From assembly GCA_041649575.1 (NCBI GenBank), contig JBAZMW010000002.1:148487-212486 (forward strand): DNA of 64,000 bases, given 5' to 3'. Of this stretch, positions 8,183-46,157 are shown piece after piece. Numbering within the stretch: position 1 is the stretch's first letter; each line of letters starts with the position of its first letter. This DNA is from Patescibacteria group bacterium (GTDB taxonomy: Bacteria > Patescibacteriota > Patescibacteriia > 2-01-FULL-39-33). Under the pieces are notes generated by a model that saw only the letters and a list, made by a program, of their open reading frames with translations, did no database searches and was not told where the DNA came from. The translations under genes and the position numbers were made by a program.

Positions 8183-8284
8183 AATATATCTTTCTCCAGA
8201 GAGAATGATTCATAGTCCACTTGTGGTGGAAGATGATTGCACAAAAGACAAGGGAACAGGAACCCAAGAAGGAGGCTGTACGTC

Positions 8285-9106
8285 ATGATTAAAAGAACCG
8301 TCGTGGGGCGACTTTTCCGTGATTCTGGCGCATTCGGCCAGTTGACGCCGCCGCCCGGTCTGGAGGGAACCATTGGTGATCCCGATTGGGATTTCTTCTC
8401 GAAGCTGCCGCCGCGTTTTGATTTTCTGGAACTCTGCGATCGGGTCGGCCACGCTTTTGAGATGTCCGAGTCACCCATCTCGCCCTCCGACTGGGAGGAC
8501 CAGTTCGAAAGTCAGAAGGAGCGGCTGCTCGCTCTGTCCGGCTGCTCTGATGGCCATGGCATCGTGCTTTTGCCCGGCCTATTGCCAGTGGCTCCCGGTG
8601 ATTGTATCAGGAAGAGCCTTTTCAATGTCTACATCCCGGCGGTAGAACGCGGCTACGGGGCGATCTATCCCAAGAGGGCTTTTGAGGATTGGTGTGATGG
8701 TCGGGCGGACAGTGTCGCGGCTTTTCCCGGAGTGGGCCACGAGCATCTAATCCACCTCGCCAGTAAAGGCTTGGTCGCCGTCTTCGTCTACATCGCCCAT
8801 TGTATGCGGGCGTGGCCCGTCTCGACCCAGCGCCGACTGCCACGGAAGTTGTTCAAATCGAATTTCTCCTTGGCCGGCGGCTGTGACACGCTTTCCGTCC
8901 TGTCTCTGCACCCTGATATTCTCGCCGCTGGTTTCTGTAGCCCGACGATCGAGCTCAGTGCCTTGCAGACAGATTCGCCGCGCCTCTCGATCTGCGTGGT
9001 GCCAGAAGACAAACGCCTCAGACTCGACATCTGGGGTAATCCCGACGATTTCGCGCCTGAAGCTTCAGGAGGGCTTTCGTTCTGGAAGGAGCAACCTGTC
9101 TTCTAG
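8285..9106 (+). CDS. GC-rich orphan protein, 273 aa, no recognised domain
   Basis: ATG at 8285 has AAGGAGG 9 nt upstream. The long open frame is in GC-rich DNA where other frames are also open, so the frame choice rests on the SD and on length. Confidence 0.6.
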   Translation: MIKRTVVGRLFRDSGAFGQLTPPPGLEGTIGDPDWDFFSKLPPRFDFLELCDRVGHAFEMSESPISPSDWEDQFESQKERLLALSGCSDGHGIVLLPGLLPVAPGDCIRKSLFNVYIPAVERGYGAIYPKRAFEDWCDGRADSVAAFPGVGHEHLIHLASKGLVAVFVYIAHCMRAWPVSTQRRLPRKLFKSNFSLAGGCDTLSVLSLHPDILAAGFCSPTIELSALQTDSPRLSICVVPEDKRLRLDIWGNPDDFAPEASGGLSFWKEQPVF

Positions 9107-9195
9107 CTGGCGCGCCTTAGCCGGCTGCCGGAGTTCTCTAATTGGGGCTAGTGATCATACCAATCACCGGCCTCTGTTTTTTGTTTTAAGCGTAG

Positions 9196-9224
9196 TTGAC
9201 ATTGATAATGAAAACCCTTAAGAT
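9196..9224 (+). promoter_or_regulatory. Promoter: TTGACA, 17-nt spacer, TAAGAT(AAT)
   Basis: TTGACA at 9196-9201 and TAAGAT at 9219-9224. Confidence 0.55.
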
Positions 9225-9277
9225 AATCTTTCGATCTTTCAAGTTAAACTAGTAAGGCAACCATGGAGGGAGCTGCC

Positions 9278-10015
9278 ATGTTTCTGGTATTATTTTCCAT
9301 TCTGGTCTACCCAGTGGCCTTTGTCACCTTCGTCGTTTGCGCCTCAATCTACCTGGCGTTTGTCTTTGTCTTCAAGTCGCTGGGCTGGGAGCTGCAGTAC
9401 CTGGGGCCGTTGGTTCGGTTTCTGGCTCGCGTGATTCTCTTGAGTTGTGGCCAATGGCTCAAGGTTGGGGGCAACTGGCCCTCTCCGACTATCGGGCCTT
9501 GCATCTTTCTCTTCAACCACAGCTCTATCCTGGATGCTCTGGTGGCTGGCGCGGTGCTAAAAGGACGGTTCACTGGCGTGGCTGCCCAGGAGTATTTCTT
9601 TTGGCCGCTGTGGGGAACCATTATGCGCTGGCACAATATCATTCCCATCAAGCGCAAGTGCCACGACGAGGCCATAGAGAGCATGCGGCGGGCGGAAGAG
9701 GCGATAAAAAACGGCTGGTCAATAGGCGGCTTTCCCGAGGGCACCAGAAGCAAGACAGGAGAGTTGCAGCCGTTCAAAAAGGGCCTTTTCTATGTGGCCA
9801 AGGCCACGGGCGCGCCGATCGTGGTGATAGCCATCAAGGGGGCGTACCGTGCCAAGAGTCGCGTCGGTTGGTGTGTTCGGCCGGGAGTGATAACGGCCAC
9901 TATCGGCAAACCCTGGACCCTGTGGTCTAACGGAAAGCAACGGTATGCGGCCTTGTCGGTGGAAGAGTTAAGGCAACTGGCCGAAGGGCTCATGGCAACC
10001 ATGCTCGAAAGTTGA
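9278..10015 (+). CDS. plsC: 1-acyl-sn-glycerol-3-phosphate acyltransferase-like (PlsC/LPLAT family), GC-rich
   Basis: NHSSILD (H-x4-D) and FPEGTRS motifs. ATG at 9278 is preceded by GGAGGGAG; an alternative in-frame ATG is at 9263. Confidence 0.8.
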   Translation: MFLVLFSILVYPVAFVTFVVCASIYLAFVFVFKSLGWELQYLGPLVRFLARVILLSCGQWLKVGGNWPSPTIGPCIFLFNHSSILDALVAGAVLKGRFTGVAAQEYFFWPLWGTIMRWHNIIPIKRKCHDEAIESMRRAEEAIKNGWSIGGFPEGTRSKTGELQPFKKGLFYVAKATGAPIVVIAIKGAYRAKSRVGWCVRPGVITATIGKPWTLWSNGKQRYAALSVEELRQLAEGLMATMLES

Positions 10016-12357: not shown

Positions 12358-12714
12358 ATGAGTCAAAAGACTGGCATACTATTGCTGCTGTTGCGGCCGA
12401 AAGACGGAGCGGCCGTCTTCTTGGACTGGACCCAGAACGCCCTCTTCATGCTGGAGAGCGCGAGTGCCACAGGCGTTTCGCCGTTGGCCGAGAGGGAAGA
12501 TCTGGCCAAGTGTATGAAGGGTTACGAGCTGTGTCCCGCGCTTGGCTACGGCCTATGCGCCAGGTGCCCTATGTCAGTCACCGGCGGTGCTCTCTGTAAT
12601 TTCTGGGCTTCCCAGGGATTCGCCCGCGTGCTCGACGCGCGCACAGAAGAGGAGGCGACCTTTGCCGATCTCGATGCCATGCGCGCCGCGCTCACCGCTT
12701 CCATTACCGGCTGA
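12358..12714 (+). CDS. GC-rich orphan protein, 118 aa
   Basis: AAGGAG SD 9 nt upstream of the ATG. Contains CARCP and other Cys residues. No recognised domain. Confidence 0.55.
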   Translation: MSQKTGILLLLLRPKDGAAVFLDWTQNALFMLESASATGVSPLAEREDLAKCMKGYELCPALGYGLCARCPMSVTGGALCNFWASQGFARVLDARTEEEATFADLDAMRAALTASITG

Positions 12715-12729
12715 AAGGAGAACACGGAC

Positions 12730-13107
12730 ATGCCAACGGTACAAGTGGCCGCGATAAATCTGCCGGCTGGCGCCTTCCTTTTCTTCTATCCGGAACACGC
12801 CACCCCCCAGTACCTTCTGTACAAGAATATCTGGCTGGGACAGACGATGTTCAGGCAGAAGCTAAACGAAGACGAACTTCAGGCTCTCCTCGCCGCCGGT
12901 CGAAATGGGTGGGAGGAAGTGGGCGAGGTGACTCGACGAGAGTTGCAGGCCGCGGATCTCTCTGGACTGGTTCGCAATCTCAAGACCAGGTGCGTCTGGC
13001 CCGAGAATGCGACCGCGTCAATCGCTGTCAGTCCTGACTGCAGCGGACGATGCTCGGAGTGTCGCGGGTGCTATAGCGACATGGAGCCAGTCACAGTAGA
13101 GCGATAG
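12730..13107 (+). CDS. GC-rich orphan protein, 125 aa, with a C-terminal Cys cluster
   Basis: AAGGAG SD 9 nt upstream. C-terminal CSGRCSECRGC (C-x3-C-x2-C-x2-C). Confidence 0.55.
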   Translation: MPTVQVAAINLPAGAFLFFYPEHATPQYLLYKNIWLGQTMFRQKLNEDELQALLAAGRNGWEEVGEVTRRELQAADLSGLVRNLKTRCVWPENATASIAVSPDCSGRCSECRGCYSDMEPVTVER

Positions 13108-20532: not shown

Positions 20533-20709
20533 CGAGTGTTTTTAGATAATTTTTTTGAATAATATTAAAACTTTTGTTATTGTGGATAATTTTTGGTATT
20601 TTCATTTGACATACAATAAAAAAAATTTTATATTTTAAAATTATAATGATTATTATAATTTTATTTTGTTTAAATTTAGCTAAATTATTGGTATTTTAAA
20701 AAAATTACT

Positions 20710-20738
20710 ATTGACAAATATTTATCTATATGATATAA
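20710..20738 (+). promoter_or_regulatory. Promoter: TTGACA, 17-nt spacer, TATAAT
   Basis: TTGACA at 20710-20715 and TATAAT at 20733-20738, at the downstream end of a very A+T-rich ~230-bp spacer. Confidence 0.55.
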
Positions 20739-20744
20739 TTATAA

Positions 20745-21314
20745 TTGTAAAAAGATAAATAAGATATTTTTCGAATCTCCTTGCTCATGGCGTTACGCCA
20801 GTTATCTGGATGTATCGCCATTGACAAGGGTCTTTGAAAGGCGTTAGAACTATAATTTAGAGGAGGATGGCGCTTTATACGCTGCCAGTCCTGGCTTCAA
20901 GATAACTTCTTGAGGCGAGGCGGCCGGCTAAGCGCCCTGGGAAATCAGGTCACAAAATATAATTTTGCGGGCCGTACGATTCTCCCGCCAATCACCCTCT
21001 AATAATTGTTCTAAAAAATCAGGCGGGGATCTTGTCCCTGCCGCGATGCGAAGGAAGCCAGTGCCCGTAAATCTGCGCCTGTTTGGCGCAGATCAGGGCA
21101 GTCAGAAAAAGTTCGGCAAGTAGCAAAACAAACATCTTTACCGTGGCCGGCAACTTTTTCTCAAGTTTTATTCGTATCGTGGCAGAGGTAAGCGGCCACT
21201 GCCCTCTCCTTGGTGGCAAGCCGGTTTGGTTTGTATGACCGACCGGCTTGCCTCTCTACTTTAGTCAACAAGATTTGTTGACTGGGGCAGGGAAGTCAAC
21301 GAGGAGGGCGAGTC
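20745..21314 (+). other. GC-rich, hairpin-dense ~570-nt untranslated region (long leader or independent RNA)
   Basis: I found no SD-preceded ORF on the plus strand. Perfect hairpins at 21071-21093 (9 bp), 21215-21252 (11 bp) and 21264-21282 (8 bp). Confidence 0.4.
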
Positions 21315-21503
21315 ATGATTGTACAATGTTGTAAGTGCCTTCGCGTACGCGAAGGTACACAAGGTAGTGAGTGGAGCCAGGAGCCCGGAGAACGTTTGAC
21401 TGAAACAGACGTCTCCCATGGGTACTGCCCCGCTTGCACCGAGAAGGCGTTGGCAGAAGTACGCCAACACCATGGACAGAAGGAGGATACGCGGACCGAA
21501 TAG
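21315..21503 (+). CDS. Small zinc-ribbon-like protein, 62 aa (CxxC ... SHGYCPAC)
   Basis: GGAGGG SD 6 nt upstream. Sequence begins MIVQCCKCLRVREG...W...SHGYCPACTEKAL. Confidence 0.6.
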   Translation: MIVQCCKCLRVREGTQGSEWSQEPGERLTETDVSHGYCPACTEKALAEVRQHHGQKEDTRTE

Positions 21504-21520
21504 GACCGCGTTTTAATTTT
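21489..21520 (+). terminator. Intrinsic terminator overlapping the stop codon
   Basis: ACGCGG / CCGCGT stem followed by TTTTAATTTT. Confidence 0.5.
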
Positions 21521-21776
21521 CTCAAAAATTATCAATAAATTTTTAAAGCACTCTTGACAACATCTTGTTTTTGATTTTTTTTCTGTGTTATAATTTTTTT
21601 GCAGGGAAGGATTATCACTCGTCATATTACCAGTTACACTTTAAACTCTCTCCCCTTAGTGTGGCCTGGCAATATCCAGAGTGCCTTCTCTAAATCCCGC
21701 CTTTACGGCGGGATTTATATTTTTTATTTTGTTAGTGTTTTATTTTGTGTTATAATAAGCCCATAAAAGGAGCGTT

Positions 21777-34002: not shown

Positions 34003-34968
34003 ATGAAGAAATCAAATCTGCCTATTCTCAGTCAGTTTTCGGACTTTCTGGCCTATTGCGAGGTAGAAAAAGGTCTTAGCCCCATTTCTACCAGAAATTA
34101 CCACAATTTTTTGAGAATGTTCGAAGGTTGGCTAAAAATCAAACATTTAACGCAGCTCAAGCCGCATGAGCTCACTCCAGAGCATGTCTGGGACTACCGG
34201 CTTTATCTTTCCCGTCGGCAAGACCGCTCTGGTCGCTATATCAAAAAAACCACTCAAAATTATTATTTAATCGCCCTTAGGAACCTTTTGAACTACTTCG
34301 CCGATAAAGATATTATCTCTTTGCCTTCAGAAAAAGTTAAATTACCAAAATTAACCGAAAAAGACAAAGCGATAAAGTTTCTAAAGTTTGATCAGATAGA
34401 AAAGTTATTACAGGTGCCGGATGTCACCACTCTTGAAGGCCTAAGGGACAGAACGATTCTCGAAATTCTCTTCTCTACTGGTATGCGGGTTTCGGAGTTA
34501 ACGTCGCTTAATATCAAACAGTTTGATCGCCTAGCTTTACTAAAAAATAATTTTTCTGATCAAGAGTTAAGCATCGCTGGTAAAGGTGGTAGAACAAGAA
34601 CGGTTTATTTTTCTCATCGAGCTTTGGGTTGGCTGGCTAGATACTTAAAAAACAGAAACGACCTCTATCCCCCGCTTTTTATTAACTATCGTCCCCATAA
34701 TGACAGAGATGACGAGCACCGTTTAACGCCTCGTTCGGTTGAAAGATTGGTAAAAAGACACACCGTGATGGCCGGGTTGCCTGTTGATGCCACGCCGCAC
34801 ACCCTGCGTCATAGCTATGCCACGGATTTATTGGATCAGGGAGCAGATTTGCGCAGTGTCCAGGAGCTTTTGGGGCATAAAAATATTGTTACCACTCAAA
34901 TTTATACTCACGTCACCAATCAAAAGCTTCGCTCCATTCATAAAAAATTTCATAGTGGCAATCATTGA
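34003..34968 (+). CDS. xerC: Tyrosine recombinase XerC/XerD family
   Basis: TPHTLRHSYATDLLDQGADLRSVQELLGHKNIVTTQIYTHV. Confidence 0.88.
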   Translation: MKKSNLPILSQFSDFLAYCEVEKGLSPISTRNYHNFLRMFEGWLKIKHLTQLKPHELTPEHVWDYRLYLSRRQDRSGRYIKKTTQNYYLIALRNLLNYFADKDIISLPSEKVKLPKLTEKDKAIKFLKFDQIEKLLQVPDVTTLEGLRDRTILEILFSTGMRVSELTSLNIKQFDRLALLKNNFSDQELSIAGKGGRTRTVYFSHRALGWLARYLKNRNDLYPPLFINYRPHNDRDDEHRLTPRSVERLVKRHTVMAGLPVDATPHTLRHSYATDLLDQGADLRSVQELLGHKNIVTTQIYTHVTNQKLRSIHKKFHSGNH

Positions 34969-34979
34969 AATAAAAACTA

Positions 34980-35006
34980 CGTCCCGATAACCGGGACGGA
35001 GTTTTT
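34980..35006. terminator. Bidirectional hairpin terminator
   Basis: CGTCCCG / CGGGACG stem with T-runs on both strands. Confidence 0.7.
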
Positions 35007-35029
35007 CAGAGAATAAAATCGTCTTTTGT

Positions 35030-35158
35030 TTATTCTTTCTCTTTGCAACCGCAGCCGCAACCGGCCCCGCAGGAACAGCAATGAAAACAAACCTCCGGCT
35101 CGCAGGAACAGCGGGTTTCTTCGTCTATGGGCATCTCGCATTTAGCGCATTTATCCAT
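35030..35158 (-). CDS. Cys-rich 42-aa ORF (11 Cys), metallothionein-like or peptide precursor; absent from the ORF track
   Basis: My translation is MDKCAKCEMPIDEETRCSCEPEVCFHCCSCGAGCGCGCKEKE. GC-rich. Possible promoter TTGCCT, 16-nt spacer, TATTAT. No SD. Confidence 0.4.
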   Translation of the reverse strand: MDKCAKCEMPIDEETRCSCEPEVCFHCCSCGAGCGCGCKEKE

Positions 35159-35197
35159 AAAATTTGGTTAATTATTTAATAATATCTAATTTCTAGT

Positions 35198-36451
35198 TTA
35201 AGGCAAGTAGGTCGAGGGGCTGACTGGGATGCCATTAGAGCGCACCTCGAAATGTAAATGGGGACCGGTAGAAAATCCCGTGTTGCCGCTGTAACCGATA
35301 ATTTGTCCTTTGGTGACATATTGATCACCTTTAACATTAATACTGCTTAAATGGCCATATAGAGTCGAGAGATTGTTGTTATGAATGATCATGACGTAGG
35401 TGCCATACCAGCGGGTGTTGGCGGCTACTTTGGCCACATAGCCGGATTCGGCCGCTTTTACTGGTGTGCCGATTTTGGCCGCTAGGTCGATTCCCGAATG
35501 TTCAAAGAGATTACGAAACGGGTAATCGGGATCATGAAAATAACAAGTAATCCGGGGATTGTTAATGGGCCAGATCAAAGCGGCTTCTCCCAGAGAATTA
35601 AATTTTTCCTGACTCCCCTTTTTTTCCAGCTCTTGTCGAATTTTTCTTTCCAAGGCGGCGATTTGATTATTGGCCGCCGTTTGTTCTTTTTTGAGATCGG
35701 TAATCAGGTTTTGAAATTTGACCTCCGATTTTTTGGTCTCGACAATCAGATACTGTTTGGCGCCCTTTTGTTCGCCCAGCGCCGTCTTTTCCTGTTCCAG
35801 CTTGTTTAGCAAGTCTGAAAGTTGATCGCGTTCGCCGTTTAATTTTTCTTTTTGCTTGTTCAAAGTTTCTACCAGTTCTTGCACGCGGTTCAGGGTTTTT
35901 TGTAAATCACCTTCTATATTTTCCAAAGCTTTTACCTGATCGAAAAATTCCGAAAAAGAATTGTTGCTTAGTAAAACAAAAAGATAATTTTTGTCGTCAT
36001 AATGATCGAGAGCGCGGATAAAAGCGGCCAGCCGTTCCTTGTCTTTATTGATCATCAGCTCATTTTCTTTGATTTTCAGGCCGATTTTTTCTATTTCCAG
36101 TTCGGTTGATTTAATCTCCTCTTCTTTGGCGGTGATGTCTAGTCCCATTTTGGCGATCTGATTATCCAAAATATAAACTTGATTTTTAAAGTTGGCCGCT
36201 TGGCCCTGGGCTTTTTTGATGCTGTCTTTGTGCTTGTTTATCTCCTCGGCTAATTTGTCTATTTTTTCCTGTTGGGCTTCAATTTGCTTGTTTAAATTGG
36301 CTATCAAAGCTTCATTAGAGCCGGAGTCGCCAGCTGTCTCTTGCGCTCGCCCTATTTCTCTGGACATCAAAAAAACACCGCCAAAAATAATTAACGGCAT
36401 CAAAATTGACGCTAAAATATGATATTTTAGCTTTTTCAGTTCGGCAAGCAT
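35198..36451 (-). CDS. M23 family metallopeptidase with an N-terminal coiled coil (EnvC-like)
   Basis: HSGIDLAA, YGHLS and GNTGFSTGPHLHFEVR, plus a long coiled-coil region. Confidence 0.88.
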   Translation of the reverse strand: MLAELKKLKYHILASILMPLIIFGGVFLMSREIGRAQETAGDSGSNEALIANLNKQIEAQQEKIDKLAEEINKHKDSIKKAQGQAANFKNQVYILDNQIAKMGLDITAKEEEIKSTELEIEKIGLKIKENELMINKDKERLAAFIRALDHYDDKNYLFVLLSNNSFSEFFDQVKALENIEGDLQKTLNRVQELVETLNKQKEKLNGERDQLSDLLNKLEQEKTALGEQKGAKQYLIVETKKSEVKFQNLITDLKKEQTAANNQIAALERKIRQELEKKGSQEKFNSLGEAALIWPINNPRITCYFHDPDYPFRNLFEHSGIDLAAKIGTPVKAAESGYVAKVAANTRWYGTYVMIIHNNNLSTLYGHLSSINVKGDQYVTKGQIIGYSGNTGFSTGPHLHFEVRSNGIPVSPSTYLP

Positions 36452-36500
36452 GGAAAGAAGATTATTTTAATCTTATTCTACAAGAATTATATAACAATTC

Positions 36501-36529
36501 TTGACAAAAATCAATCTCAAAGCTATTAT
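36501..36529 (+). promoter_or_regulatory. Promoter: TTGACA, 17-nt spacer, TATTAT
   Basis: TTGACA at 36501-36506 and TATTAT at 36524-36529. Confidence 0.55.
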
Positions 36530-36584
36530 TTTTATTAAGTTGTCCTTTGGCTTTTGGTGAAGTTTCAACAACGGAGGGAGAAAC

Positions 36585-36848
36585 ATGGGACTCGTCGCTC
36601 CTGACACTCGCGGCAACGCGTGCTGGCTGATTAAATGCAACAACTGCGGCCATCAGGCGGCTTGGGATGGCTCCAATGCCGAGCAAACCCTTAGCCTGGC
36701 CGAGAATGATGGTTGGACGGTAACTCGAGGCAAGGGCCCAGGTGAGGTGGTCGCTCTGTGCCCCGAATGCAGGAAGAAACAACAGAAAGTCACTCCAGCC
36801 GCCATTGTCAGCCTGATGGATTTCCGCCAAGCATTGCCCAGGCGGTGA
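36585..36848 (+). CDS. GC-rich small zinc-ribbon protein, 87 aa
   Basis: GGAGGGAGAAAC directly precedes the ATG. CNNC ... CPEC pair. Confidence 0.55.
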   Translation: MGLVAPDTRGNACWLIKCNNCGHQAAWDGSNAEQTLSLAENDGWTVTRGKGPGEVVALCPECRKKQQKVTPAAIVSLMDFRQALPRR

Positions 36849-36888
36849 GCCGCGGGAGGTTTCCGAGATTCCCAACGTCAAAGGTTTC

Positions 36889-36928
36889 AAGGCTTGGACC
36901 GAGCGCGGTTCAAGCCTTTTCTGTCTTT
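36889..36928 (+). terminator. Hairpin terminator overlapping the gltX 3' end
   Basis: AAGGCTTGGACC / GGTTCAAGCCTT stem followed by TTTTCTGTCTTT. Confidence 0.55.
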
Positions 36929-38418
36929 AAGCGCTCCAGCGCTTGCCTGATTCTTAGTAAACTTTTTTCTGGTCCCAAAATTTCCGCCACCTCAAACGGC
37001 GTTGGCGATTTTTCCATTCCCGTCAGCGCCACTCTCATCGGCCACAGCACTTCGCCGTTGGTCAGATTGTTTTTAGTGATAAAAGTTTTTAATTTATTTT
37101 CCAATACTCCCCTTTCCCAGTCGCTGGCAGAATATTTTTCCAACTCCTGCAAAGTTAATTGCAAATTTTTTTTAGCCGCTTCCGCGCTAGATTTTTTCCA
37201 GACCAGCAAGCTCGGGTTATAACTTAGCTCAGCGGTAAAGAAAAAATTTATCCTCCCCCCTACTTCGTTCAAGCGGCTAACCCTTTCTTGTTCTAGTTTT
37301 AGTATTTTTTCCAAATCCAAATCAGTTGGCATTTGACCGACATTCTTTTCCAAATACGGCTTGGCTAGTTGGGCAAATTTAGTATTGGTCAGTTTCTTAA
37401 GGTATTCGCCATTGAGCCAGTCTAGTTTGGCTAGATCAAAAATGGCTCCGGCCTTGTGCACCTTGGCCAGAGAAAAAGCCTGAATAAGTTCTGGCAGGAG
37501 AAAAATTTCTTGTTCAGTGCCCGGATTCCAACCCAAAAGCGCCACAAAATTTAGGAGCGCTTCCGGCAAATAGCCTTTGTCGCGGTAATCCTCCACCGCC
37601 ACGTCGCCTTGTCGTTTGGACAGTTTGCTGCGGTCGGCGTTTAAGATCAGAGGCAAATGGGCAAACAGCGGCGGCGTCCAGCCCAAAAATTTGTACAACA
37701 ATAAATGCTTTGGCGTCGAAGACAGCCACTCTTCGCCGCGAATGACATGGGAGATTTTCATCAGATGGTCGTCAACCACCGAAGCCAAGTGATAAGTCGG
37801 AAAGCCATCGGCTTTCAAGATCACTTGGTCGTCTATTTCCCGGCTACGAAATTTTATTTCGCCGCGAATCAAATCATTAAAAACCACTTCTTGATTTTCC
37901 GGCACCTTCATTCTGATGGTGTATTTTTCGCCGGCCGCCAACTTATTTTGCACTTCATCTGGCAACAGATGGCGGCAATGCCAATCATATCTGGTTGGCT
38001 GTTTGGCGGCCTCTTGCTGTCGGCGTAAATTTTCTAACCTTTCCTCACTGCAGAAGCAATAATAGGCCAAACCCTTATTTACTAGCTCGGAGGCGTATTT
38101 CTGATAGATTTCGAGCCTTTTAGACTGCGTGTAGGGCCCAAAATGGCCTTTTTCAACGGCTTTTCCGGCTTTATCGAGTATTACGCCCTCGTCGGGTTTT
38201 AGGCTCGCCCAAGCCAAATTTTTGAGCAAATTTTCTACCGCCCCCGGCACTTCCCTGGTTTGGTCGGTATCTTCGATTCTCAGCACAAAAGACCCTTTAT
38301 TTTGTTTGGCAAAAATATAGGCATAGAGCGCGGTGCGTAGTCCCCCGACATGCAAATAGCCAGTCGGACTCGGCGCAAAGCGGGTGCGGACCTTTAATTT
38401 GTTTAGAAAAGAAAACAT
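36910..38418 (-). CDS. gltX: Glutamate--tRNA ligase
   Basis: RFAPSPTGYLHVGGLRTALY (HIGH motif) and KLSKRQGD (KMSKS motif). Confidence 0.93.
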   Translation of the reverse strand: MFSFLNKLKVRTRFAPSPTGYLHVGGLRTALYAYIFAKQNKGSFVLRIEDTDQTREVPGAVENLLKNLAWASLKPDEGVILDKAGKAVEKGHFGPYTQSKRLEIYQKYASELVNKGLAYYCFCSEERLENLRRQQEAAKQPTRYDWHCRHLLPDEVQNKLAAGEKYTIRMKVPENQEVVFNDLIRGEIKFRSREIDDQVILKADGFPTYHLASVVDDHLMKISHVIRGEEWLSSTPKHLLLYKFLGWTPPLFAHLPLILNADRSKLSKRQGDVAVEDYRDKGYLPEALLNFVALLGWNPGTEQEIFLLPELIQAFSLAKVHKAGAIFDLAKLDWLNGEYLKKLTNTKFAQLAKPYLEKNVGQMPTDLDLEKILKLEQERVSRLNEVGGRINFFFTAELSYNPSLLVWKKSSAEAAKKNLQLTLQELEKYSASDWERGVLENKLKTFITKNNLTNGEVLWPMRVALTGMEKSPTPFEVAEILGPEKSLLRIRQALERLKTEKA

Positions 38419-38421
38419 AAA

Positions 38422-39291
38422 TTATTTTTTCTTTACCACCAGCCACCCAAATTTAATGGTGGCATTATAAATCCTACTTAACCGGCGCGGTTCTTGGATT
38501 AGCCGATATAGCCATTCTAACCCCAATCGCCTCAAAAATAAAGGCGCGCGTCTCACCTGTCCCGACAAAAAATCAAAAGTCCCGCCGACGCCAATCGCCA
38601 CTTTAATTTTTGGCACTTTGGCTAAGTTGTCTCTGATCCACTTCTCCTGCCTCACTTGCGGCAAGGCCACCAACAGAATATTGGCTTCGCTGGCATTAAT
38701 TTTTTCCAGCACCTGATTGTTGTTTTCAAATTGCCAACATTTGTTTTCTATGGGATCCCCACGGCCGGCTTCGCCGGCCTCGGGATGACATTGTAGAAGC
38801 GGCCCGCCTTGGTCAAAGCCAGCCACTTTGCCAATATATTTTTCTGCCACTTGTTTTGCCGCTCCTTCTTTTCCGCCCAGTAAATAAATTTTATAAATGT
38901 CATTGCGAGGGAGCGCGAGCGACCGTCCGCCTAGGCTCGGCGAGACTGGTGGCAATCCCGTGGGATCACCGCGTTGCCCGGTCATTTGACCGGGCTCCTC
39001 GGGATGACAACTTAGAAGTGCCTCTATTAGATCCACGCCCGTCACTCTCTCTAATTTTTCTTGTTTTAAAAATTTAGCCGCCCAAACCAGCCCAGCGCCA
39101 TCGCAGGTGGCCAAATCAGCATTATTTAAAATATTTCTGAAAACTTCGTCTTTTTGCGCCGCCACCACAAATTCCGGATTAATCGTCACCACCTGCCTTT
39201 GGCCTTCCGCTGTCAGCCATTTTTTAATTAACTTCAAGGCTTCTGGCAAATTGACCTGATCGATTTTTATTCCCAGTATTTCTATTTTCAT
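38422..39291 (-). CDS. WecB/TagA/CpsF-family glycosyltransferase carrying three in-frame repeat insertions
   Basis: VTINPEFVVAAQKD and DLATCDGAGLVWAAKF. 289 aa, versus about 240-250 aa that I recall as typical for the family. Confidence 0.85.
   Translation of the reverse strand: MKIEILGIKIDQVNLPEALKLIKKWLTAEGQRQVVTINPEFVVAAQKDEVFRNILNNADLATCDGAGLVWAAKFLKQEKLERVTGVDLIEALLSCHPEEPGQMTGQRGDPTGLPPVSPSLGGRSLALPRNDIYKIYLLGGKEGAAKQVAEKYIGKVAGFDQGGPLLQCHPEAGEAGRGDPIENKCWQFENNNQVLEKINASEANILLVALPQVRQEKWIRDNLAKVPKIKVAIGVGGTFDFLSGQVRRAPLFLRRLGLEWLYRLIQEPRRLSRIYNATIKFGWLVVKKK
38751..38799 (-). repeat. GC-rich CHPE-type element, copy a, in frame in the wecG-like gene
   Basis: Sense strand reads CTTCTACAATGTCATCCCGAGGCCGGCGAAGCCGGCCGTGGGGATCCCA and encodes LLQCHPEAGEAGRGDP. 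Confidence 0.7.
38898..38958 (-). repeat. Second copy of the ~60-nt pheT element, in frame in the wecG-like gene
   Basis: The reverse complement matches 25978-26037 except for a 1-nt indel plus a substitution near the 3' end. Encodes GLPPVSPSLGGRSLALPRND. Confidence 0.85.
38961..39017 (-). repeat. GC-rich CHPE-type element, copy b
   Basis: Sense strand reads CTTCTAAGTTGTCATCCCGAGGAGCCCGGTCAAATGACCGGGCAACGCGGTGATCCCA. Termini match copy a; the central hairpin has a different sequence. Confidence 0.7.
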
Positions 39292-39294
39292 AAG

Positions 39295-39984
39295 CTACTT
39301 TTTTAGATAATTCACGATGATTTTGGCCTGGCTCTGGTTTTCTTTGTCGTCCTTAAAAGACATCAGGCCAAAAATGTCGCCTTTCCAAAAGCCCAAATTA
39401 ATTTCATAATCTGCCAGATTTTCCTTAAACTCAAAGCCGCTTTCCTTCAGCTTGTTTTTGTAGTAGCCGGCCACCTCTTCTTTCGGCTGGCTTATCTGTT
39501 TCCAGGACAAAGAGGTTGTTTCCATTTTTTTCAGTTCCGGCGAGCTTAGGGCTTTTTTTAATTCCTCCGGCGTAAAACCGCGCGACAAGTCTATTTTATC
39601 GGCAAAACTTTGGCTTAATTTAGCTTTCAAATCATTGGATAAATAAGCCAAAGTCGGCTTAAGCAGCCAGTTTGGTAAAAGGCCCATGATTTTCAAAAGT
39701 TTTTCCTTGCCTTCTGGCGTCTGCAGTTCAATCTCGGCTTTTTCCGGCAGATAAATGGCCAGTTCTTCCGGGAAATCACCCGGCAACTGGTTGACTTTTT
39801 CCACCACCGGAGAGACCGCCAATCTGACAGCGGCAAAAAGAGTAATGAAGATAATTACCAACGCCAAAATTAAACAACCGAAAAATTTGATAAATTCTCG
39901 GCTTCTATTTTTTTCCGGATTGTTCAGGTTGAGTTCCTGCCAATTTTTCATTATTTCCTGGCTAATTTTATTATATTCTAGCAA
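39295..39984 (-). CDS. Membrane-anchored hypothetical protein
   Basis: One TM helix (FGCLILALVIIFITLFAAV). No recognised domain. Confidence 0.65.
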   Translation of the reverse strand: MLEYNKISQEIMKNWQELNLNNPEKNRSREFIKFFGCLILALVIIFITLFAAVRLAVSPVVEKVNQLPGDFPEELAIYLPEKAEIELQTPEGKEKLLKIMGLLPNWLLKPTLAYLSNDLKAKLSQSFADKIDLSRGFTPEELKKALSSPELKKMETTSLSWKQISQPKEEVAGYYKNKLKESGFEFKENLADYEINLGFWKGDIFGLMSFKDDKENQSQAKIIVNYLKK

Positions 39985-40026
39985 ATACCAGCCTTTTTTG
40001 CAAAAGTAAATCAGTCTTGTTATAAT
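39975..40026. promoter_or_regulatory. Divergent promoter pair sharing one palindromic -35 hexamer TTGCAA
   Basis: TTGCAA at 39998-40003. Plus strand: 17 nt to TATAAT (40021-40026). Minus strand: 17 nt to TAGAAT (reverse complement of 39975-39980). Confidence 0.5.
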
Positions 40027-40030
40027 AAAA

Positions 40031-40240
40031 GTGGTTCATTTCCTCGAGACCCGAACTGGTCATTTGGGTCTCACCGCTCCGGTGGGGAAGCGAAACCAGC
40101 GCCTTCGCTTCCCCTCTGGCTTAACCAAAGCACCTTGGTAGCACTTCCCGGGTCTACTGAAAGCCGCATCCAGGCAAGCATTAGACCCGTTCCCGCTGTG
40201 GCGGCCGATGGCATCAGTCATCAGCCGTCCTTTTTGTTTA
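40031..40240 (+). ncRNA. Candidate GC-rich structured RNA R1 (~210 nt, class unknown)
   Basis: Has its own promoter and terminator (40200-40240). Perfect stems at 40046-52/40066-72, 40084-94/40104-14 and 40150-56/40182-88. I found no SD-preceded ORF. Confidence 0.45.
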
Positions 40241-40289
40241 TCCACAGTTAAATATTTATAACCAAAGAAATCTTTGCTATAATAAAATC

Positions 40290-40622
40290 ACATTGGACAT
40301 GGGGCTTGTCAAATGGCCCTGCAACCAGTCCGAACGGAGAACGAGCCATGAGAACAAAGACAACGAAGCGAGCAGCAGTGGGCGTGATGGTCGATGGCAC
40401 CGGCGGAACAGCGTACTTGGCGACGTCCTGACCTAACGAGAACGGTCGGACTGGGCGTCAAAGAAGTTCTCCGAGACGCTTGACTCAACCCAAGCGTCTC
40501 GCCGCACCTTAACTCTCCTCGGAGAGTTGTGACTATAGGTTTTCACGCTTTGACAAAGCGTGGACATCCCCCTAAGGTGAGCAGTCGGTTGCTGACAGGT
40601 AGCCGACTCTCTTTTTGTTTTT
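40290..40622 (+). ncRNA. Candidate GC-rich structured RNA R2 (~330 nt, class unknown)
   Basis: Promoter TTTATA, 17-nt spacer, TATAAT (40255-40283). 9-bp long-range helix 40325-33/40446-54. Hairpins at 40473-40500, 40511-28 and 40544-62. Terminator at 40583-40622. Confidence 0.45.
40348..40431 (+). CDS. Possible 27-aa mini-ORF inside R2
   Basis: MRTKTTKRAAVGVMVDGTGGTAYLATS with GGAG 8 nt upstream. It is enclosed by the long-range helix. Coding status is uncertain. Confidence 0.2.
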   Translation: MRTKTTKRAAVGVMVDGTGGTAYLATS

Positions 40623-40767
40623 AAAAAATTTAGTTATCCACAGGTACTATTTATTTCTTTAAAAAATAGTTATATAATGAAAGTGCGGAAGGTATTTACG
40701 ATAGCGTACAACCGAAGCAGGCCATCGGCCAAACGATCGGCCAAACGAAAGAAAGGTGGGACGGAAG

Positions 40768-41259
40768 ATGAGAAAGTTCGTGTTTTGTACGGTAGTACTG
40801 GCGTTCGCGTTTGTGATGATTCCGGCGACGAATACTCCGGCATACGCGACGCAACTCGATCAAGGCAAGGCAGTGGCGACGGCTCCGACGACGATGGGGA
40901 CGACGCAGCAGGACGTGCAGACGGCGATGAAGAGCAACCTGGTCCTCGACGGCACCGGGCAGAAAGTCGCTGAAGTGATGAAGGCGCCGACTCTTGACTC
41001 CGGACGAGTGATTGCGCAGACGGCGACGACGAAGACGGCACGCGAAGAGCAGACGAAGATCACGGCGAAGAGTGACACGGTTGTAACGGCGAAGATCGAA
41101 GCGCAAGGCATGGGCGAGCAGATGGCAGCGGCTGGCGAAGATGACGCTGGCACGATCATCGTGGCGACGAAGAGTGACACCTATGCGACGAGAATCGAGG
41201 GCCGTATCGCTCACGACGCGGACGCGACCTTCAATGCGAACGTTCTGATCATCGGCTAA
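40768..41259 (+). CDS. GC-rich secreted Thr/Ala-rich protein, 163 aa
   Basis: AAGGTGGG SD. Signal peptide MRKFVFCTVVLAFAFVMIPATNTPAYA. Internal repeat CGAAGAGTGACAC at about 41069 and 41168. Confidence 0.6.
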   Translation: MRKFVFCTVVLAFAFVMIPATNTPAYATQLDQGKAVATAPTTMGTTQQDVQTAMKSNLVLDGTGQKVAEVMKAPTLDSGRVIAQTATTKTAREEQTKITAKSDTVVTAKIEAQGMGEQMAAAGEDDAGTIIVATKSDTYATRIEGRIAHDADATFNANVLIIG

Positions 41260-41349
41260 CCACGCGGGCAGCGCCGAAAGTCAGAACGAGTAGTACCTTG
41301 GATACACAACCGATACCGGCCAACAGTCGGATCGGCCACCTCCAGAGTT

Positions 41350-41388
41350 GGGTCAGCTGGCAACGGCGACCCTCTCTTTTTTTGTTTT
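41350..41388 (+). terminator. Intrinsic terminator
   Basis: GGGTC.GC / GC.GACCC stem followed by TCTCTTTTTTTGTTTT. Confidence 0.65.
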
Positions 41389-41396
41389 GAAAAAAT

Positions 41397-41425
41397 TTGC
41401 CAAAATTTTATAAATTTTTTATACT
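41397..41425 (+). promoter_or_regulatory. Promoter: TTGCCA, 17-nt spacer, TATACT
   Basis: TTGCCA at 41397-41402 and TATACT at 41420-41425. Confidence 0.5.
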
Positions 41426-41431
41426 ATAAGC

Positions 41432-41756
41432 AAGCGGTTCCTGCTGTGGGAACCGTGCACATTGGGTCAACGGGTCAACCGGAGGGTACAAGCAATATGA
41501 AAAAGGAAATGAGAGCGCAGGGTTTGGTCGTGGCGAAATGGAAGTAGGCTAGACCGTAGCAAGGCAACTTAGCGTTGTTGGGCGGAGGCCCCAACTAACA
41601 GTGGGCCTCCGCTGAATCTTTCCCTCGCTTGAGCGGGGTGCTGGTATATCCTTCTCTGAAGGGGTTCCCCCGTTGGGAAGTGTTGCCCATTCAACGCCTC
41701 CTGACCGCACAGGCTGCAATTTGTCGCAAGACGAAGGGCAGCCTGAATTATTTTTT
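41432..41756 (+). ncRNA. Candidate GC-rich structured RNA R3 (~320 nt) with a possible 16-aa mini-ORF at 41497-41547
   Basis: Hairpins at 41435-55 and 41582-41612 (10 bp). Terminator CAGGCTGC / GCAGCCTG followed by T6. Mini-ORF MKKEMRAQGLVVAKWK has GGAGGG 10 nt upstream. Confidence 0.4.
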
Positions 41757-41781
41757 GCTATACTTAATTTATACTGAATTT

Positions 41782-42657
41782 ATGAGAGCAGCCAAATTTT
41801 ACAAAAAATCAGGGGCTAATGTTAAATGTCAGCTTTGTCGGCATTTTTGTCTGATTGCCCCAGCCAAGTTCGGCCTCTGCGGCATGAGGAAGAATATCGA
41901 CGGCCGGCTTTATTCTCTTAATTACGGTAAAATCATTGCCAGCCAGATTGACCCGATCGAAAAAAAACCGCTCTATCATTTTTTGCCAGGCAGTTTTGCT
42001 TATTCTTTGGCTTGCCCCGGCTGTAATTTTAAATGCCTTAATTGCCAAAATTCCGATCTTTCCCAAATCACCCCGGCTTTACAAAAGGCCGTTGATTCTT
42101 TGCCGGAAACCAGGCCGGAAGAGATTGTCGAGGCGGCCTGGGAAAACAATTGCCCGTCAATCGCTTATACCTATACCGAGCCCACCATTTTTGCCGAGTT
42201 TGCTCTCGACTGCATGGAGCTGGCCAGAGACAGTAATCTAAAAAATATCTGGGTTTCCAATGGCTATCTGTCGCCCGGTTGTCTGGAGGCCATCAGCCCC
42301 TATCTTGACGCCATTAATATTGATTTGAAATTTTTTAGCGATAAAAATTATCAAAAAATTTGCGGCGCTCGCCTAAAACCAGTCTTGGATAATCTGGTTG
42401 CTTTTAAAACAGCCAAAATTCATTTGGAAATCACCACTTTAATCATTCCCTCACTTAATGATAGCGATGAAGAGTTAACCGCTCTGGCAGAGTTTATTTA
42501 TCAAAAATTGGGCGACGACACGCCCTGGCATCTGGGCGCCTTTCACCCCGCTTACAAATTAAAAAATTTACCGGCTACGCCGACAGAAACCATCAAGCGG
42601 GCCCAGGCAATCGGGAAAAATATCGGCCTGAAATATGTTTATCCGGGAAATGTTTGA
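41782..42657 (+). CDS. AmmeMemoRadiSam-system-type radical SAM enzyme (PFL-activase-like)
   Basis: KCQLCRHFC...GLCGMRKN...DPIEKKPLYHFLPGS...GCNFKCLNCQN. ATG at 41782; the track's TTG at 41629 would run through the upstream terminator. Confidence 0.8.
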   Translation: MRAAKFYKKSGANVKCQLCRHFCLIAPAKFGLCGMRKNIDGRLYSLNYGKIIASQIDPIEKKPLYHFLPGSFAYSLACPGCNFKCLNCQNSDLSQITPALQKAVDSLPETRPEEIVEAAWENNCPSIAYTYTEPTIFAEFALDCMELARDSNLKNIWVSNGYLSPGCLEAISPYLDAINIDLKFFSDKNYQKICGARLKPVLDNLVAFKTAKIHLEITTLIIPSLNDSDEELTALAEFIYQKLGDDTPWHLGAFHPAYKLKNLPATPTETIKRAQAIGKNIGLKYVYPGNV

Positions 42658-45827: not shown

Positions 45828-45892
45828 AACACGAAGAACGGGCACCGGTTGGCACCCGTTCGGTTCCACAGAACAAACTCACGTCGCCTTGA

Positions 45893-46093
45893 TCACGCTG
45901 GCTCCAGCAGTCTGAAGCATATCATCATGCCGATGAAGCAACAGGCCGCCACAACCATTAAGCGCTCGATTCTCCTTTCCCAACCATGCCTCATGTTTTC
46001 ATAGACGAGTGGGATCGCAAAGCCGGAGAATAAGCCAATTAGGCCAAGAACCACCATGACCACTAGCAATGCACCGTGATATGCGGTAAACAT
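45893..46093 (-). CDS. GC-rich small two-TM membrane protein, 66 aa
   Basis: ATG at 46093 with AGGAGGG 8 nt upstream (the track's TTG at 46099 is too close to the SD). Hairpin and T-run on the minus strand at about 45845-45880. Confidence 0.55.
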   Translation of the reverse strand: MFTAYHGALLVVMVVLGLIGLFSGFAIPLVYENMRHGWERRIERLMVVAACCFIGMMICFRLLEPA

Positions 46094-46157
46094 GTCCAAG
46101 ACCCTCCTGTGTCTGTTGAAATTGTGCTTGTCAAAAACATACCATTAAAATTTACAA

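What the first reader, a model, noticed from the sequence alone, without database searches (positions are those of the whole stretch)
41397..41756. R3: GC-rich unit immediately upstream of the AmmeMemoRadiSam-type radical SAM gene
The promoter is TTGCCA, 17 nt, TATACT. A hairpin lies right at the 5' end (41435-55). A possible 16-aa ORF, MKKEMRAQGLVVAKWK (41497-41547), has GGAGGG upstream. About 200 nt of structured sequence follows, including the 10-bp stem at 41582-41612, and then a strong terminator 26 nt before the radical SAM ATG. It could be a cis-regulatory leader that controls read-through into the radical SAM gene, an sRNA, or a short peptide gene. A peptide-substrate role is pure speculation.
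Basis: inference. Interest (0 to 1): 0.5.

Follow-up and report, generated by a model that had tools for sequence, protein, structure and literature searches.

The report
Orphan small-RNA-like unit, not a leader
The GC-rich stretch in front of the radical SAM gene is real and looks like a small non-coding gene with its own promoter and terminator, one of four such lineage-specific inserts, and nothing found here ties it to control of the radical SAM gene.

Summary
These are the promoter TTGCCA-17-TATACT, the 5' hairpin, the 16-codon ORF with GGAGGG upstream, the 10-11 bp stem, and a -24.7 kcal/mol terminator hairpin with a U-tail.

The leader interpretation is not supported. After the terminator, the radical SAM gene keeps its own -10 box (TATACT) 6 nt before the ATG. 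The same leaderless layout occurs in 19 of 36 distinct homologue upstream regions. The closest syntenic relatives have intergenic regions of 162-842 nt with no homologue of the element. No alternative antiterminator pairing was found, and there is no Rfam match.

The unit is the last of four tandem, same-strand cassettes, each with a promoter, a GC-rich body and a terminator (39998-41756). Three show no coding periodicity. One encodes a 163-aa protein with no homologue anywhere. Relatives carry different, non-homologous hairpin-rich units in the same gap.

Best reading: a lineage-specific, independently transcribed, structured RNA of about 320 nt, inserted like a phage moron. It may carry a micro-ORF or be a decayed cassette. 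No homologues exist, so covariation cannot be tested. Interest is modest. The genome-wide cassette pattern is more interesting than this single unit.

The parts
41397..41425 (+). Sigma-70-type promoter of the unit: TTGCCA, 17 nt, TATACT. The inferred start site is about 41432.
   Evidence: 10 of 12 consensus matches; read.
41434..41456 (+). 9-bp hairpin at the 5' end, 2-3 nt from the inferred transcript start.
   Evidence: -13.7 kcal/mol, mean pair probability 0.96.
41481..41547 (+). GGAGGG (41481-41486), a 10-nt spacer, then the 16-codon ORF MKKEMRAQGLVVAKWK (41497-41547).
   Evidence: The SD spacing resembles that of the GC-rich cassette genes. There is no significant period-3 signal.
41521..41555 (+). 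9-bp hairpin with G-U pairs that spans the stop codon of the small ORF.
   Evidence: mean pair probability 0.73. It is weak on its own (z -1.75).
41581..41613 (+). Perfect 10-11 bp GC-rich hairpin with an 11-nt loop.
   Evidence: I21; -25.7 kcal/mol, z -4.8; probability 0.98.
41624..41705 (+). Further short predicted hairpins: 41624-41637, and 41675-41702 with an inner stem 41680-41697.
   Evidence: mean pair probability 0.71-0.80. Prediction only.
41710..41756 (+). Intrinsic terminator: an 8+6 bp interrupted hairpin at 41710-41745, then the tail AAUUAUUUUUU.
   Evidence: pair probability about 1.0, no strong alternative partner; -24.7 kcal/mol, z -5.8.
41756..41781 (+). The radical SAM gene's own promoter region. 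TGcTATACT lies at 41756-41764. A second TATACT lies at 41770-41775 and ends 6 nt before the ATG, which is a leaderless layout. There is no SD.
   Evidence: a -10 box ends 6-9 nt before the ATG in 19 of 36 homologue upstream regions.
41782..42657 (+). AmmeMemoRadiSam-type radical SAM gene. It is a neighbour, not part of the unit.
   Evidence: TIGR04337, 294 bits.
39998..40242 (+). Unit A: promoter TTGCAA-17-TATAAT, a GC-rich non-coding body of about 200 nt, and a terminator.
   Evidence: no periodicity; z -5.25.
40255..40622 (+). Unit B: a promoter, a GC-rich non-coding body of about 320 nt with an SD and a 27-codon ORF (40349-40432), and a terminator at 40583-40608.
   Evidence: (z -2.9).
40650..41392 (+). 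Unit C: a promoter (-10 at 40673-40678), an SD, a 163-aa ORF (40768-41259) predicted to be secreted and with no homologue, and a terminator at 41345-41385.
   Evidence: GC3 0.74, period-3 signal 16.5; no homologue other than itself.

Best explanation
The element is a self-contained, lineage-specific transcription unit, not a leader of the radical SAM gene.

Proposed mechanism:
- RNA polymerase starts at about 41432 from TTGCCA-17-TATACT.
- The transcript begins with a tight hairpin. By analogy with other 5' stem-loops, this would protect it from 5'-end-dependent decay.
- The transcript continues through several GC-rich hairpins and ends at the strong intrinsic terminator at 41710-41756.
- The product is a structured RNA of about 315-325 nt that acts, if at all, away from its site of synthesis.
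- The radical SAM gene is then transcribed separately, from a -10 box abutting its ATG, as a leaderless mRNA.

The unit is the fourth of four moron-like cassettes, each with a promoter, a GC-rich body and a terminator. They were inserted into a divergent intergenic region that is short in relatives and that acts as an insertion hot-spot in this Patescibacteria family.

Shown here: the anatomy, the lack of coding periodicity, the absence of homologues, the family-wide leaderless promoter, and the variable occupancy of the gap.

Inferred: that the unit is transcribed, that the RNA is stable, and that it has a function.
For: - Own promoter and terminator.
- No period-3 coding signal in units A, B and D, but a strong signal in unit C and in every other GC-rich island ORF.
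- Fold z of -3.57 on the + strand, against +4.2 to -1.5 for coding controls.
- A family-typical -10 box lies 6 nt before the radical SAM ATG, downstream of the terminator. The same layout occurs in 19 of 36 homologue upstream regions, and only 4 of 36 have an SD.
- In syntenic relatives (M23 peptidase, gltX, WecG and a hypothetical gene on one side; radical SAM, a 450-aa gene, Memo, def and fmt on the other) the gap is 162, 249, 284, 353, 640 or 842 nt, against 1797 nt here. The gap contents are mutually non-homologous.
- Several of those gaps also hold hairpin-rich units bounded by a promoter and a terminator, with fold z of -3.3 to -7.8 (L170, L163); a hairpin-rich stretch in L171 scores -10.6 and the unit in L167 only -2.05.
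- The junction scaffolds between the four units are repeated: a T-tail followed by TTGnTATAAT (D1, D2, D4).
- No Rfam family matches, even at E-value 10.
Against: - There are no expression data.
- No homologue exists anywhere: not in about 170 related loci, phage records, plasmid records or viral contigs. There is therefore no covariation and no evidence of selection.
- The fold z-score is the weakest but one among the units compared.
- A cassette-type SD plus ATG is present, so the RNA may not be purely non-coding.
- The radical SAM gene's post-terminator promoter has no recognisable -35. Some contribution from read-through cannot be excluded.
Confidence: 0.5

Rival explanations
1. Decayed cassette. 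The unit is the transcribed or silent remnant of a GC-rich, SD-bearing protein-coding cassette like unit C. Its reading frame has been destroyed, and it has no present function.
For: - All 7 GC-rich cassette genes scored carry a strong SD (a further one at 45828-46157 does too), against 6 of 47 native genes (Fisher p about 1e-5). Unit D has the same SD-plus-ATG layout, but only 16 codons follow.
- In the small ORF's frame, GC3 > GC1 > GC2 (0.60 / 0.55 / 0.49), the same ordering as real cassettes.
- That frame has three stops and then stays open for 51 codons up to the radical SAM ATG.
- The unit is a singleton with no sign of conservation.
Against: - The period-3 signal is not significant (1.2, p = 0.33).
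- The 51-codon open stretch has a chance probability of about 0.14 (own estimate from base composition).
- The promoter, 5' hairpin and terminator are all intact.
- The fold is more stable than that of real cassette coding sequence.
Confidence: 0.2
2. Micro-protein gene or dual-function RNA. The 16-codon ORF is translated, and the rest of the unit is a long structured 3' UTR.
For: - GGAGGG lies 10 nt before the ATG. This spacing is within or near the 5-9 nt seen in this genome's cassette genes.
- Unit B has a similar SD plus a 27-codon ORF.
Against: - A 16-codon ORF is expected by chance in 320 nt.
- There is no homologue and no codon periodicity.
- The ORF is 51 nt of a 320-nt unit. The peptide has no signal sequence, no hydrophobic segment and no Cys-rich character.
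Confidence: 0.15
3. Cis-regulatory leader. Transcription from 41397-41425 reads into the radical SAM gene when the terminator is bypassed, either through a riboswitch or through leader-peptide attenuation.
For: - The unit is on the same strand, and its terminator ends 25 nt before the ATG.
- The radical SAM gene has no SD and no clear -35.
- A short ORF lies upstream of a terminator.
Against: - None of the radical SAM homologue loci examined (about 170) carries the element. The closest relatives have 162-842 nt of unrelated sequence.
- A conserved leaderless -10 box follows the terminator.
- The terminator pairs have probability about 1.0. The only competing complement of 7 nt or more is weak.
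- The small ORF stops 163 nt before the terminator and has no run of regulatory codons.
- There is no Rfam riboswitch hit.
- Three sibling units of the same build are not next to the radical SAM gene.
Confidence: 0.1
4. Precursor peptide or substrate gene for the radical SAM enzyme, in the manner of a RiPP system.
For: Only adjacency to a radical SAM gene.
Against: - The enzyme is of the PFL-activase-like AmmeMemoRadiSam type. It shows only Radical_SAM and Fer4_12 domains, with no SPASM or recognition domain.
- No small ORF is conserved upstream in relatives.
- A terminator and a separate promoter lie between the small ORF and the enzyme gene.
Confidence: 0.03

Closest known systems
Stand-alone bacterial sRNA genes found as long GC-rich intergenic regions in AT-rich genomes (the GC-IGR approach: PMC6429828, PMC11109978)
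   Same: - GC-rich (56%), long and non-coding, in a 44% GC genome whose ordinary intergenic DNA is 13-31% GC.
- Has its own promoter and an intrinsic terminator.
- Predicted multi-hairpin fold.
   Different: - It has no homologues at all, so it is not a motif class.
- The structure is supported only by thermodynamics (z -3.6).
- Expression has not been shown.
Phage morons: independently transcribed inserts between conserved genes, with deviating GC content and insertion hot-spots (definition as given in PMC2920897)
   Same: - Inserted between genes that are adjacent in relatives.
- Has its own promoter and terminator.
- GC content differs from the surroundings.
- Different inserts occupy the same site in related genomes.
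   Different: - The setting is a bacterial chromosome (gltX, def, fmt), not a phage.
- Three of the four units carry no protein gene.
- No donor has been identified.
Terminator-based 5' leaders (riboswitches, T-boxes, leader-peptide attenuators)
   Same: A structured GC-rich RNA with a short ORF and an intrinsic terminator, just upstream of a gene on the same strand.
   Different: - There is no alternative antiterminator.
- It is not conserved with the downstream gene.
- A separate, family-typical promoter lies between the terminator and the ATG.
- There is no Rfam match.
RiPP precursor plus radical SAM maturase pairs
   Same: A short ORF next to a radical SAM gene.
   Different: - The enzyme lacks SPASM and RRE domains.
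- The peptide is not conserved.
- The two are in separate transcription units.

Membership tests
Cis-regulatory leader / riboswitch / attenuator of the radical SAM gene | Lies in the 5' UTR of the regulated gene, with no promoter between it and the gene. | tested here: not met
   TGcTATACT (41756-41764) and TATACT (41770-41775, 6 nt before the ATG) follow the terminator. The same -10-to-ATG layout occurs in 19 of 36 homologue upstream regions.
Cis-regulatory leader / riboswitch / attenuator of the radical SAM gene | Mutually exclusive terminator and antiterminator pairings. | tested here: not met
   The terminator pairs have probability 0.97-1.0. The only upstream complements of 7 nt or more are a weak G-U-rich pair of overlapping 7-mers (41530-41537) and one 7-mer (41682-41688) against the 3' arm.
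Cis-regulatory leader / riboswitch / attenuator of the radical SAM gene | Co-occurs with the regulated gene across genomes. | tested here: not met
   blastn and nhmmer of the unit against about 170 loci around homologues gave no hit.
Cis-regulatory leader / riboswitch / attenuator of the radical SAM gene | Matches a described RNA family. | tested here: not met
   Rfam 15 was searched at gathering scores and at E-value up to 10. Only noise was returned.
Independent sRNA gene | Own promoter and factor-independent terminator. | tested here: met
   These are consensus and thermodynamic matches only.
Independent sRNA gene | No protein-coding signal. | tested here: met
   The period-3 signal is 1.2 (p = 0.33), against 16.5 for unit C. 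The longest + strand ORF that lies wholly inside the unit has 16 codons.
Independent sRNA gene | Conserved secondary structure shown by covariation. | tested here: inconclusive
   No homologue was found in any collection searched, so no alignment is possible.
Independent sRNA gene | A discrete transcript is detected. | not testable with these tools
   No transcriptome data are available here.
Moron-type insert | Sits between genes that are adjacent in relatives. | tested here: met
   The gap is 162 nt in L165 and 1797 nt in the window, with conserved flanking synteny.
Moron-type insert | Own transcription signals and a deviating GC content. | tested here: met
Moron-type insert | Resides in a phage or prophage genome and carries a protein gene. 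| tested here: not met
   The context is chromosomal (gltX, def, fmt). There are no PHROG hits for the cassette ORFs. Unit D has no gene.
RiPP precursor + radical SAM maturase | The radical SAM enzyme has a SPASM/twitch or peptide-recognition domain. | tested here: not met
   Only PF04055 and PF13353 were found, and the best model is TIGR04337.
RiPP precursor + radical SAM maturase | The precursor ORF is conserved next to the enzyme gene. | tested here: not met
   Relatives' upstream gaps lack it.

The most novel reading that the evidence does not exclude
In this Patescibacteria family, a few intergenic sites are filled by unrelated GC-rich cassettes, each bounded by a promoter and a terminator. 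The gap upstream of the radical SAM gene is one such site. Some cassettes are SD-bearing genes with no known homologue, in a genome whose native genes lack SD. Others are non-coding strings of hairpins.

The cassettes are joined by repeated AT-rich scaffolds: a terminator tail, sometimes a perfect TTATCCACA(G) box, and TGnTATAAT. This could reflect an undescribed way of capturing foreign or newly arisen sequences and expressing them, a chromosomal moron system. The hairpin-array RNAs, unit D among them, would then be a functional product class rather than debris.
Probability: 0.12. Interest if true: 0.7.

Novelty: new member of a known kind. Interest (0 to 1): 0.3.

Why it matters
For the radical SAM question it matters negatively. 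The element gives no handle on the regulation or the substrate of the still-uncharacterised AmmeMemoRadiSam system. In this lineage the gene appears to be expressed as a leaderless mRNA from a -10 box at its ATG.

As a candidate sRNA it is one of several in a small CPR genome, where non-coding space is scarce. That makes the units plausible functional RNAs worth a look in metatranscriptomes.

The wider pattern would be of interest for how reduced episymbiont genomes gain accessory functions. The pattern has three parts:
- GC-rich cassettes bearing an SD and their own transcription signals, in a genome that otherwise lacks SD.
- Different cassettes at the same site in related genomes.
- Repeated junction scaffolds between cassettes.

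Tried and rejected
- Rfam, at gathering scores for the whole window and at E-value up to 10 for 39900-41900: only a distant tRNA and noise.
- ARAGORN on the region: nothing.
- Self-comparison of the window for other copies: only the AT-rich terminator and promoter tails repeat.
- Homologue search for units A-D:
  - 80 genome loci and 80 metagenome loci around radical SAM homologues: none.
  - Six closer syntenic loci fetched by exact protein look-up: none.
  - Phage and plasmid collections by distant blastn: none.
  - Two exact-pattern scans of viral contigs: none.
- Unit C protein: no homologue in the 5.8-billion-protein word-indexed library or in the 1.84-billion-representative HMMER library. 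No Pfam, NCBIfam or PHROG family.
- Donor of the GC-rich cassettes, via the only cassette protein with a recognised family (the acyltransferase at 9263-10015): the best non-self hit has 49% identity and carries no name, so it is uninformative.
- Shared loop or sequence motifs among the non-coding units of the window and of L163: none apart from the terminator tails.
- Literature search for AmmeMemoRadiSam regulation and for Patescibacteria ncRNAs: nothing relevant.

Full report
**Source and setting**

The window is part of a 235-kb contig of a Patescibacteria (CPR) MAG: ENA ERZ27247363 k141_2894300, NCBI locus tags WC518_. An identical copy exists in a Logan assembly of SRR8542065. The window has 43.7% GC. 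The gene downstream of the finding starts at 41782. It is a bona fide AmmeMemoRadiSam-type radical SAM enzyme (TIGR04337, 294 bits against a cut-off of 220; Pfam Radical_SAM and Fer4_12 only). It is followed by a 451-aa protein and a LigB/Memo-like protein.

**Check of the observation**

- The promoter TTGCCA-17-TATACT lies at 41397-41425 and matches 10 of 12 consensus positions. The 2.1-kb region holds 10 promoter-like sites against 1.7 expected.
- A 9-bp hairpin at 41434-41456 starts 2-3 nt after the inferred start site (-13.7 kcal/mol, pair probability 0.96).
- GGAGGG at 41481-41486 lies 10 nt before a 16-codon ORF at 41497-41547.
- The 10-bp perfect stem at 41582-41591 / 41603-41612 extends to 11 bp (-25.7 kcal/mol, z -4.8).
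- The terminator is an interrupted 14-bp hairpin at 41710-41745 (-24.7 kcal/mol, z -5.8, pair probabilities about 1.0). It is followed by AAUUAUUUUUU.
- The unit has 56% GC, whereas ordinary intergenic DNA here has 13-31%.
- The whole-unit fold is -135.7 kcal/mol with z -3.57 on the + strand and -1.72 on the - strand. Coding controls of comparable composition give z from +4.2 to -1.5.

The structure signal is therefore real but moderate. One correction: the ATG is at 41782, so the gap after the T-run is 25 nt.

**What surrounds the unit**

The finding is the last of four tandem units on the same strand. Together they fill the 1797-nt gap between the divergently transcribed 229-aa gene (39295-39984, minus strand) and the radical SAM gene.

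| Unit | Coordinates | Content | Fold z |
|---|---|---|---|
| A | 39998-40242 | non-coding | -5.25 |
| B | 40255-40622 | non-coding, with an SD and a 27-codon ORF | -2.9 |
| C | 40650-41392 | 163-aa ORF with a signal-peptide-like N-terminus | n/a |
| D | 41397-41756 | the finding | -3.57 |

Each unit has a sigma-70-type promoter (A and B have extended TGn -10 boxes) and a hairpin-plus-U-tract terminator.

A period-3 test separates the units cleanly. The unit C ORF scores 16.5 (0 of 300 shuffles reach it), and its GC1/2/3 values are 0.57 / 0.47 / 0.74. Units A, B and D score 0.4, 1.3 and 1.2 (p = 0.93, 0.24, 0.33). Every ORF in the window's other GC-rich islands is significantly periodic. Units A, B and D are therefore non-coding, or no longer coding.

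The AT-rich junctions between units resemble one another. The terminator tails CTCT(T)TTTTGTTTT recur, as do TTGnTATAAT(AAAA) boxes and the motif TTATCCACAG (D1, D2, D4, D5). The GC-rich bodies share nothing.

**Is it a leader of the radical SAM gene?**

Four lines of evidence say no.

1. *Linkage.* I fetched 160 loci around radical SAM homologues from genomes and metagenomes (up to 59% identity). I then fetched the closest relatives available in a 5.8-billion-protein library (61-68% identity). None contains a homologue of unit D or of its siblings.
2. *Synteny.* The relatives share the gene order: M23 peptidase, gltX, WecG and a hypothetical gene on one side, and radical SAM, a 450-aa gene, Memo, def and fmt on the other. 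The gap, however, is 162 nt (L165), 249 (L168), 284 (L171), 353 (L167), 640 (L170) or 842 nt (L163), against 1797 nt here. The units are insertions into an ancestrally short divergent-promoter region.
3. *The gene's own promoter.* In 19 of 36 distinct upstream sequences of homologues with at least 50% identity, a -10 box ends 6-9 nt before the ATG, with a peak at 6 nt (12 cases). It is often TGnTATAAT. Only 4 of 36 have an SD. That is a leaderless-mRNA layout. The window keeps it downstream of the unit D terminator: TATACT at 41770-41775, 6 nt, then ATG, preceded by TGcTATACT at 41756-41764.
4. *No switch.* The terminator helix has pair probability of about 1.0, and no credible antiterminator partner exists. 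The small ORF stops 163 nt before the terminator. Rfam has no match even at E-value 10.

The second half of that criterion, read-through transcripts, cannot be tested here.

**What it most likely is**

The simplest reading is a self-contained gene for a structured RNA of about 320 nt. It would be transcribed from its own promoter, begin with a stabilising 5' hairpin, and end at its own terminator. In origin it is a lineage-specific insert.

The same gap in relatives also holds hairpin-rich, non-coding units bounded by a promoter and a terminator, and these are unrelated in sequence:

- L163: two units, z -7.75 and -7.81.
- L170: two units, z -5.1 and -3.3.
- L167: one unit, z -2.05.
- L171: a hairpin-rich stretch with a long inverted repeat, z -10.6.

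This matches the textbook description of phage morons: inserted between adjacent genes, with their own promoter and terminator, deviating GC content, and hot-spots where different morons occupy the same site (PMC2920897). The difference is that the context here is chromosomal and most units carry no protein gene.

**Rival readings that remain open**

*Decayed cassette.* This genome's native genes mostly lack an SD (6 of 47). All 7 GC-rich cassette genes scored have a strong SD 5-9 nt before the ATG, with Fisher p of about 1e-5. An eighth cassette between def and fmt follows the same rule. Units B and D carry exactly this SD-plus-ATG signature, followed by only 27 and 16 codons. In D the small ORF's frame shows the cassette-like order GC3 > GC1 > GC2 (0.60 / 0.55 / 0.49), although this is not significant. 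D could therefore be a decayed cassette gene, or a micro-protein or dual-function RNA.

*Precursor peptide.* A precursor role for the radical SAM enzyme has no support. The enzyme has no SPASM or recognition domain. The peptide is not conserved. A terminator and a separate promoter lie between the two.

**Limits**

There are no expression data. No homologue of the unit exists in any collection searched, including phage and plasmid records and viral contigs. The unit C protein has no homologue in 5.8 billion word-indexed proteins or in 1.84 billion HMMER-scanned representatives. This underlines how private the insert is.

**Verdict**

- The leader interpretation is not supported.
- The sRNA / independent-unit option is the best fit (confidence about 0.5).
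- The decayed cassette (0.2) and the micro-ORF gene (0.15) are live rivals.
- As a single locus this is a new, unconserved member of a familiar kind, an orphan candidate sRNA or moron-like insert, and its interest is modest (0.3).
- The more interesting lead is the genome-wide cassette pattern.

Noticed in passing
window 8237-10015, 12358-13107, 21317-21505, 32453-32950 (-), 40768-41259, 45828-46157 (-): GC-rich (55-60% GC, GC3 0.59-0.74) genes sit in short AT-rich frames, each with a host-type promoter (some are two-gene units) and a CTCTTTTTTGTTTT-type terminator. All carry a strong SD, whereas native genes mostly have none (7 of 7 against 6 of 47). Most have no Pfam or PHROG family. The acyltransferase's best non-self hit has 49% identity.
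   Followed up: partly
window 20711-21760: A second intergenic region is packed with promoter/terminator units. It holds a strongly structured non-coding stretch at 20862-21300 (z -7.9), a 62-aa Cys-rich ORF with an SD (21317-21505), and a hairpin RNA candidate of about 120 nt at 21600-21725 (z -7.3). None matches Rfam.
   Followed up: partly
window 40238-40246 (+), 40634-40642 (+), 20581-20589 (-); also the L170 intergenic region, about 195-205: The only three perfect DnaA-box 9-mers (TTATCCACA) in the window lie in the two cassette-rich intergenic regions. Two of them sit about 8 nt upstream of the -35 of the unit B and unit C promoters, as TTATCCACAG. A relative (L170) has the same 10-mer before a promoter in the homologous gap. 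Matches with one mismatch are not enriched (16 against 13 expected).
   Followed up: partly
window 25969-26039 and 38919-38990: A GC-rich element of about 71 nt (92% identical copies) is inserted in frame into two unrelated genes: an 822-aa ORF and the WecG/TagA glycosyltransferase. The orientation relative to the coding strand is the same in both, and both copies encode GLPPVSPSLGGRS. WecG is 240-258 aa in relatives and 289 aa here. This resembles the Rickettsia palindromic elements that insert into genes.
   Followed up: partly
window about 32000-37000: Cumulative GC skew peaks here, and gene orientation switches from + to - around 35 kb. This suggests the replication terminus lies a few kb from the cassette array.
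   Followed up: no
L165 630-656, L168 about 3722-3760, window 39975-40026: The ancestral divergent promoter region is conserved: the palindromic TTGCAA serves as -35 for the minus-strand operon (TTGCAA-17-TAAAAT / TAGAAT). In the window it also serves as -35 for unit A on the plus strand. A CCAAATTTGG palindrome lies inside the minus-strand promoter of the relatives.
   Followed up: no
L171 4790-4990: In one relative, the gap upstream of the radical SAM gene holds an element of about 200 nt with long terminal inverted repeats (fold z -10.6 and -8.5 on the two strands). It looks like a MITE.
   Followed up: no
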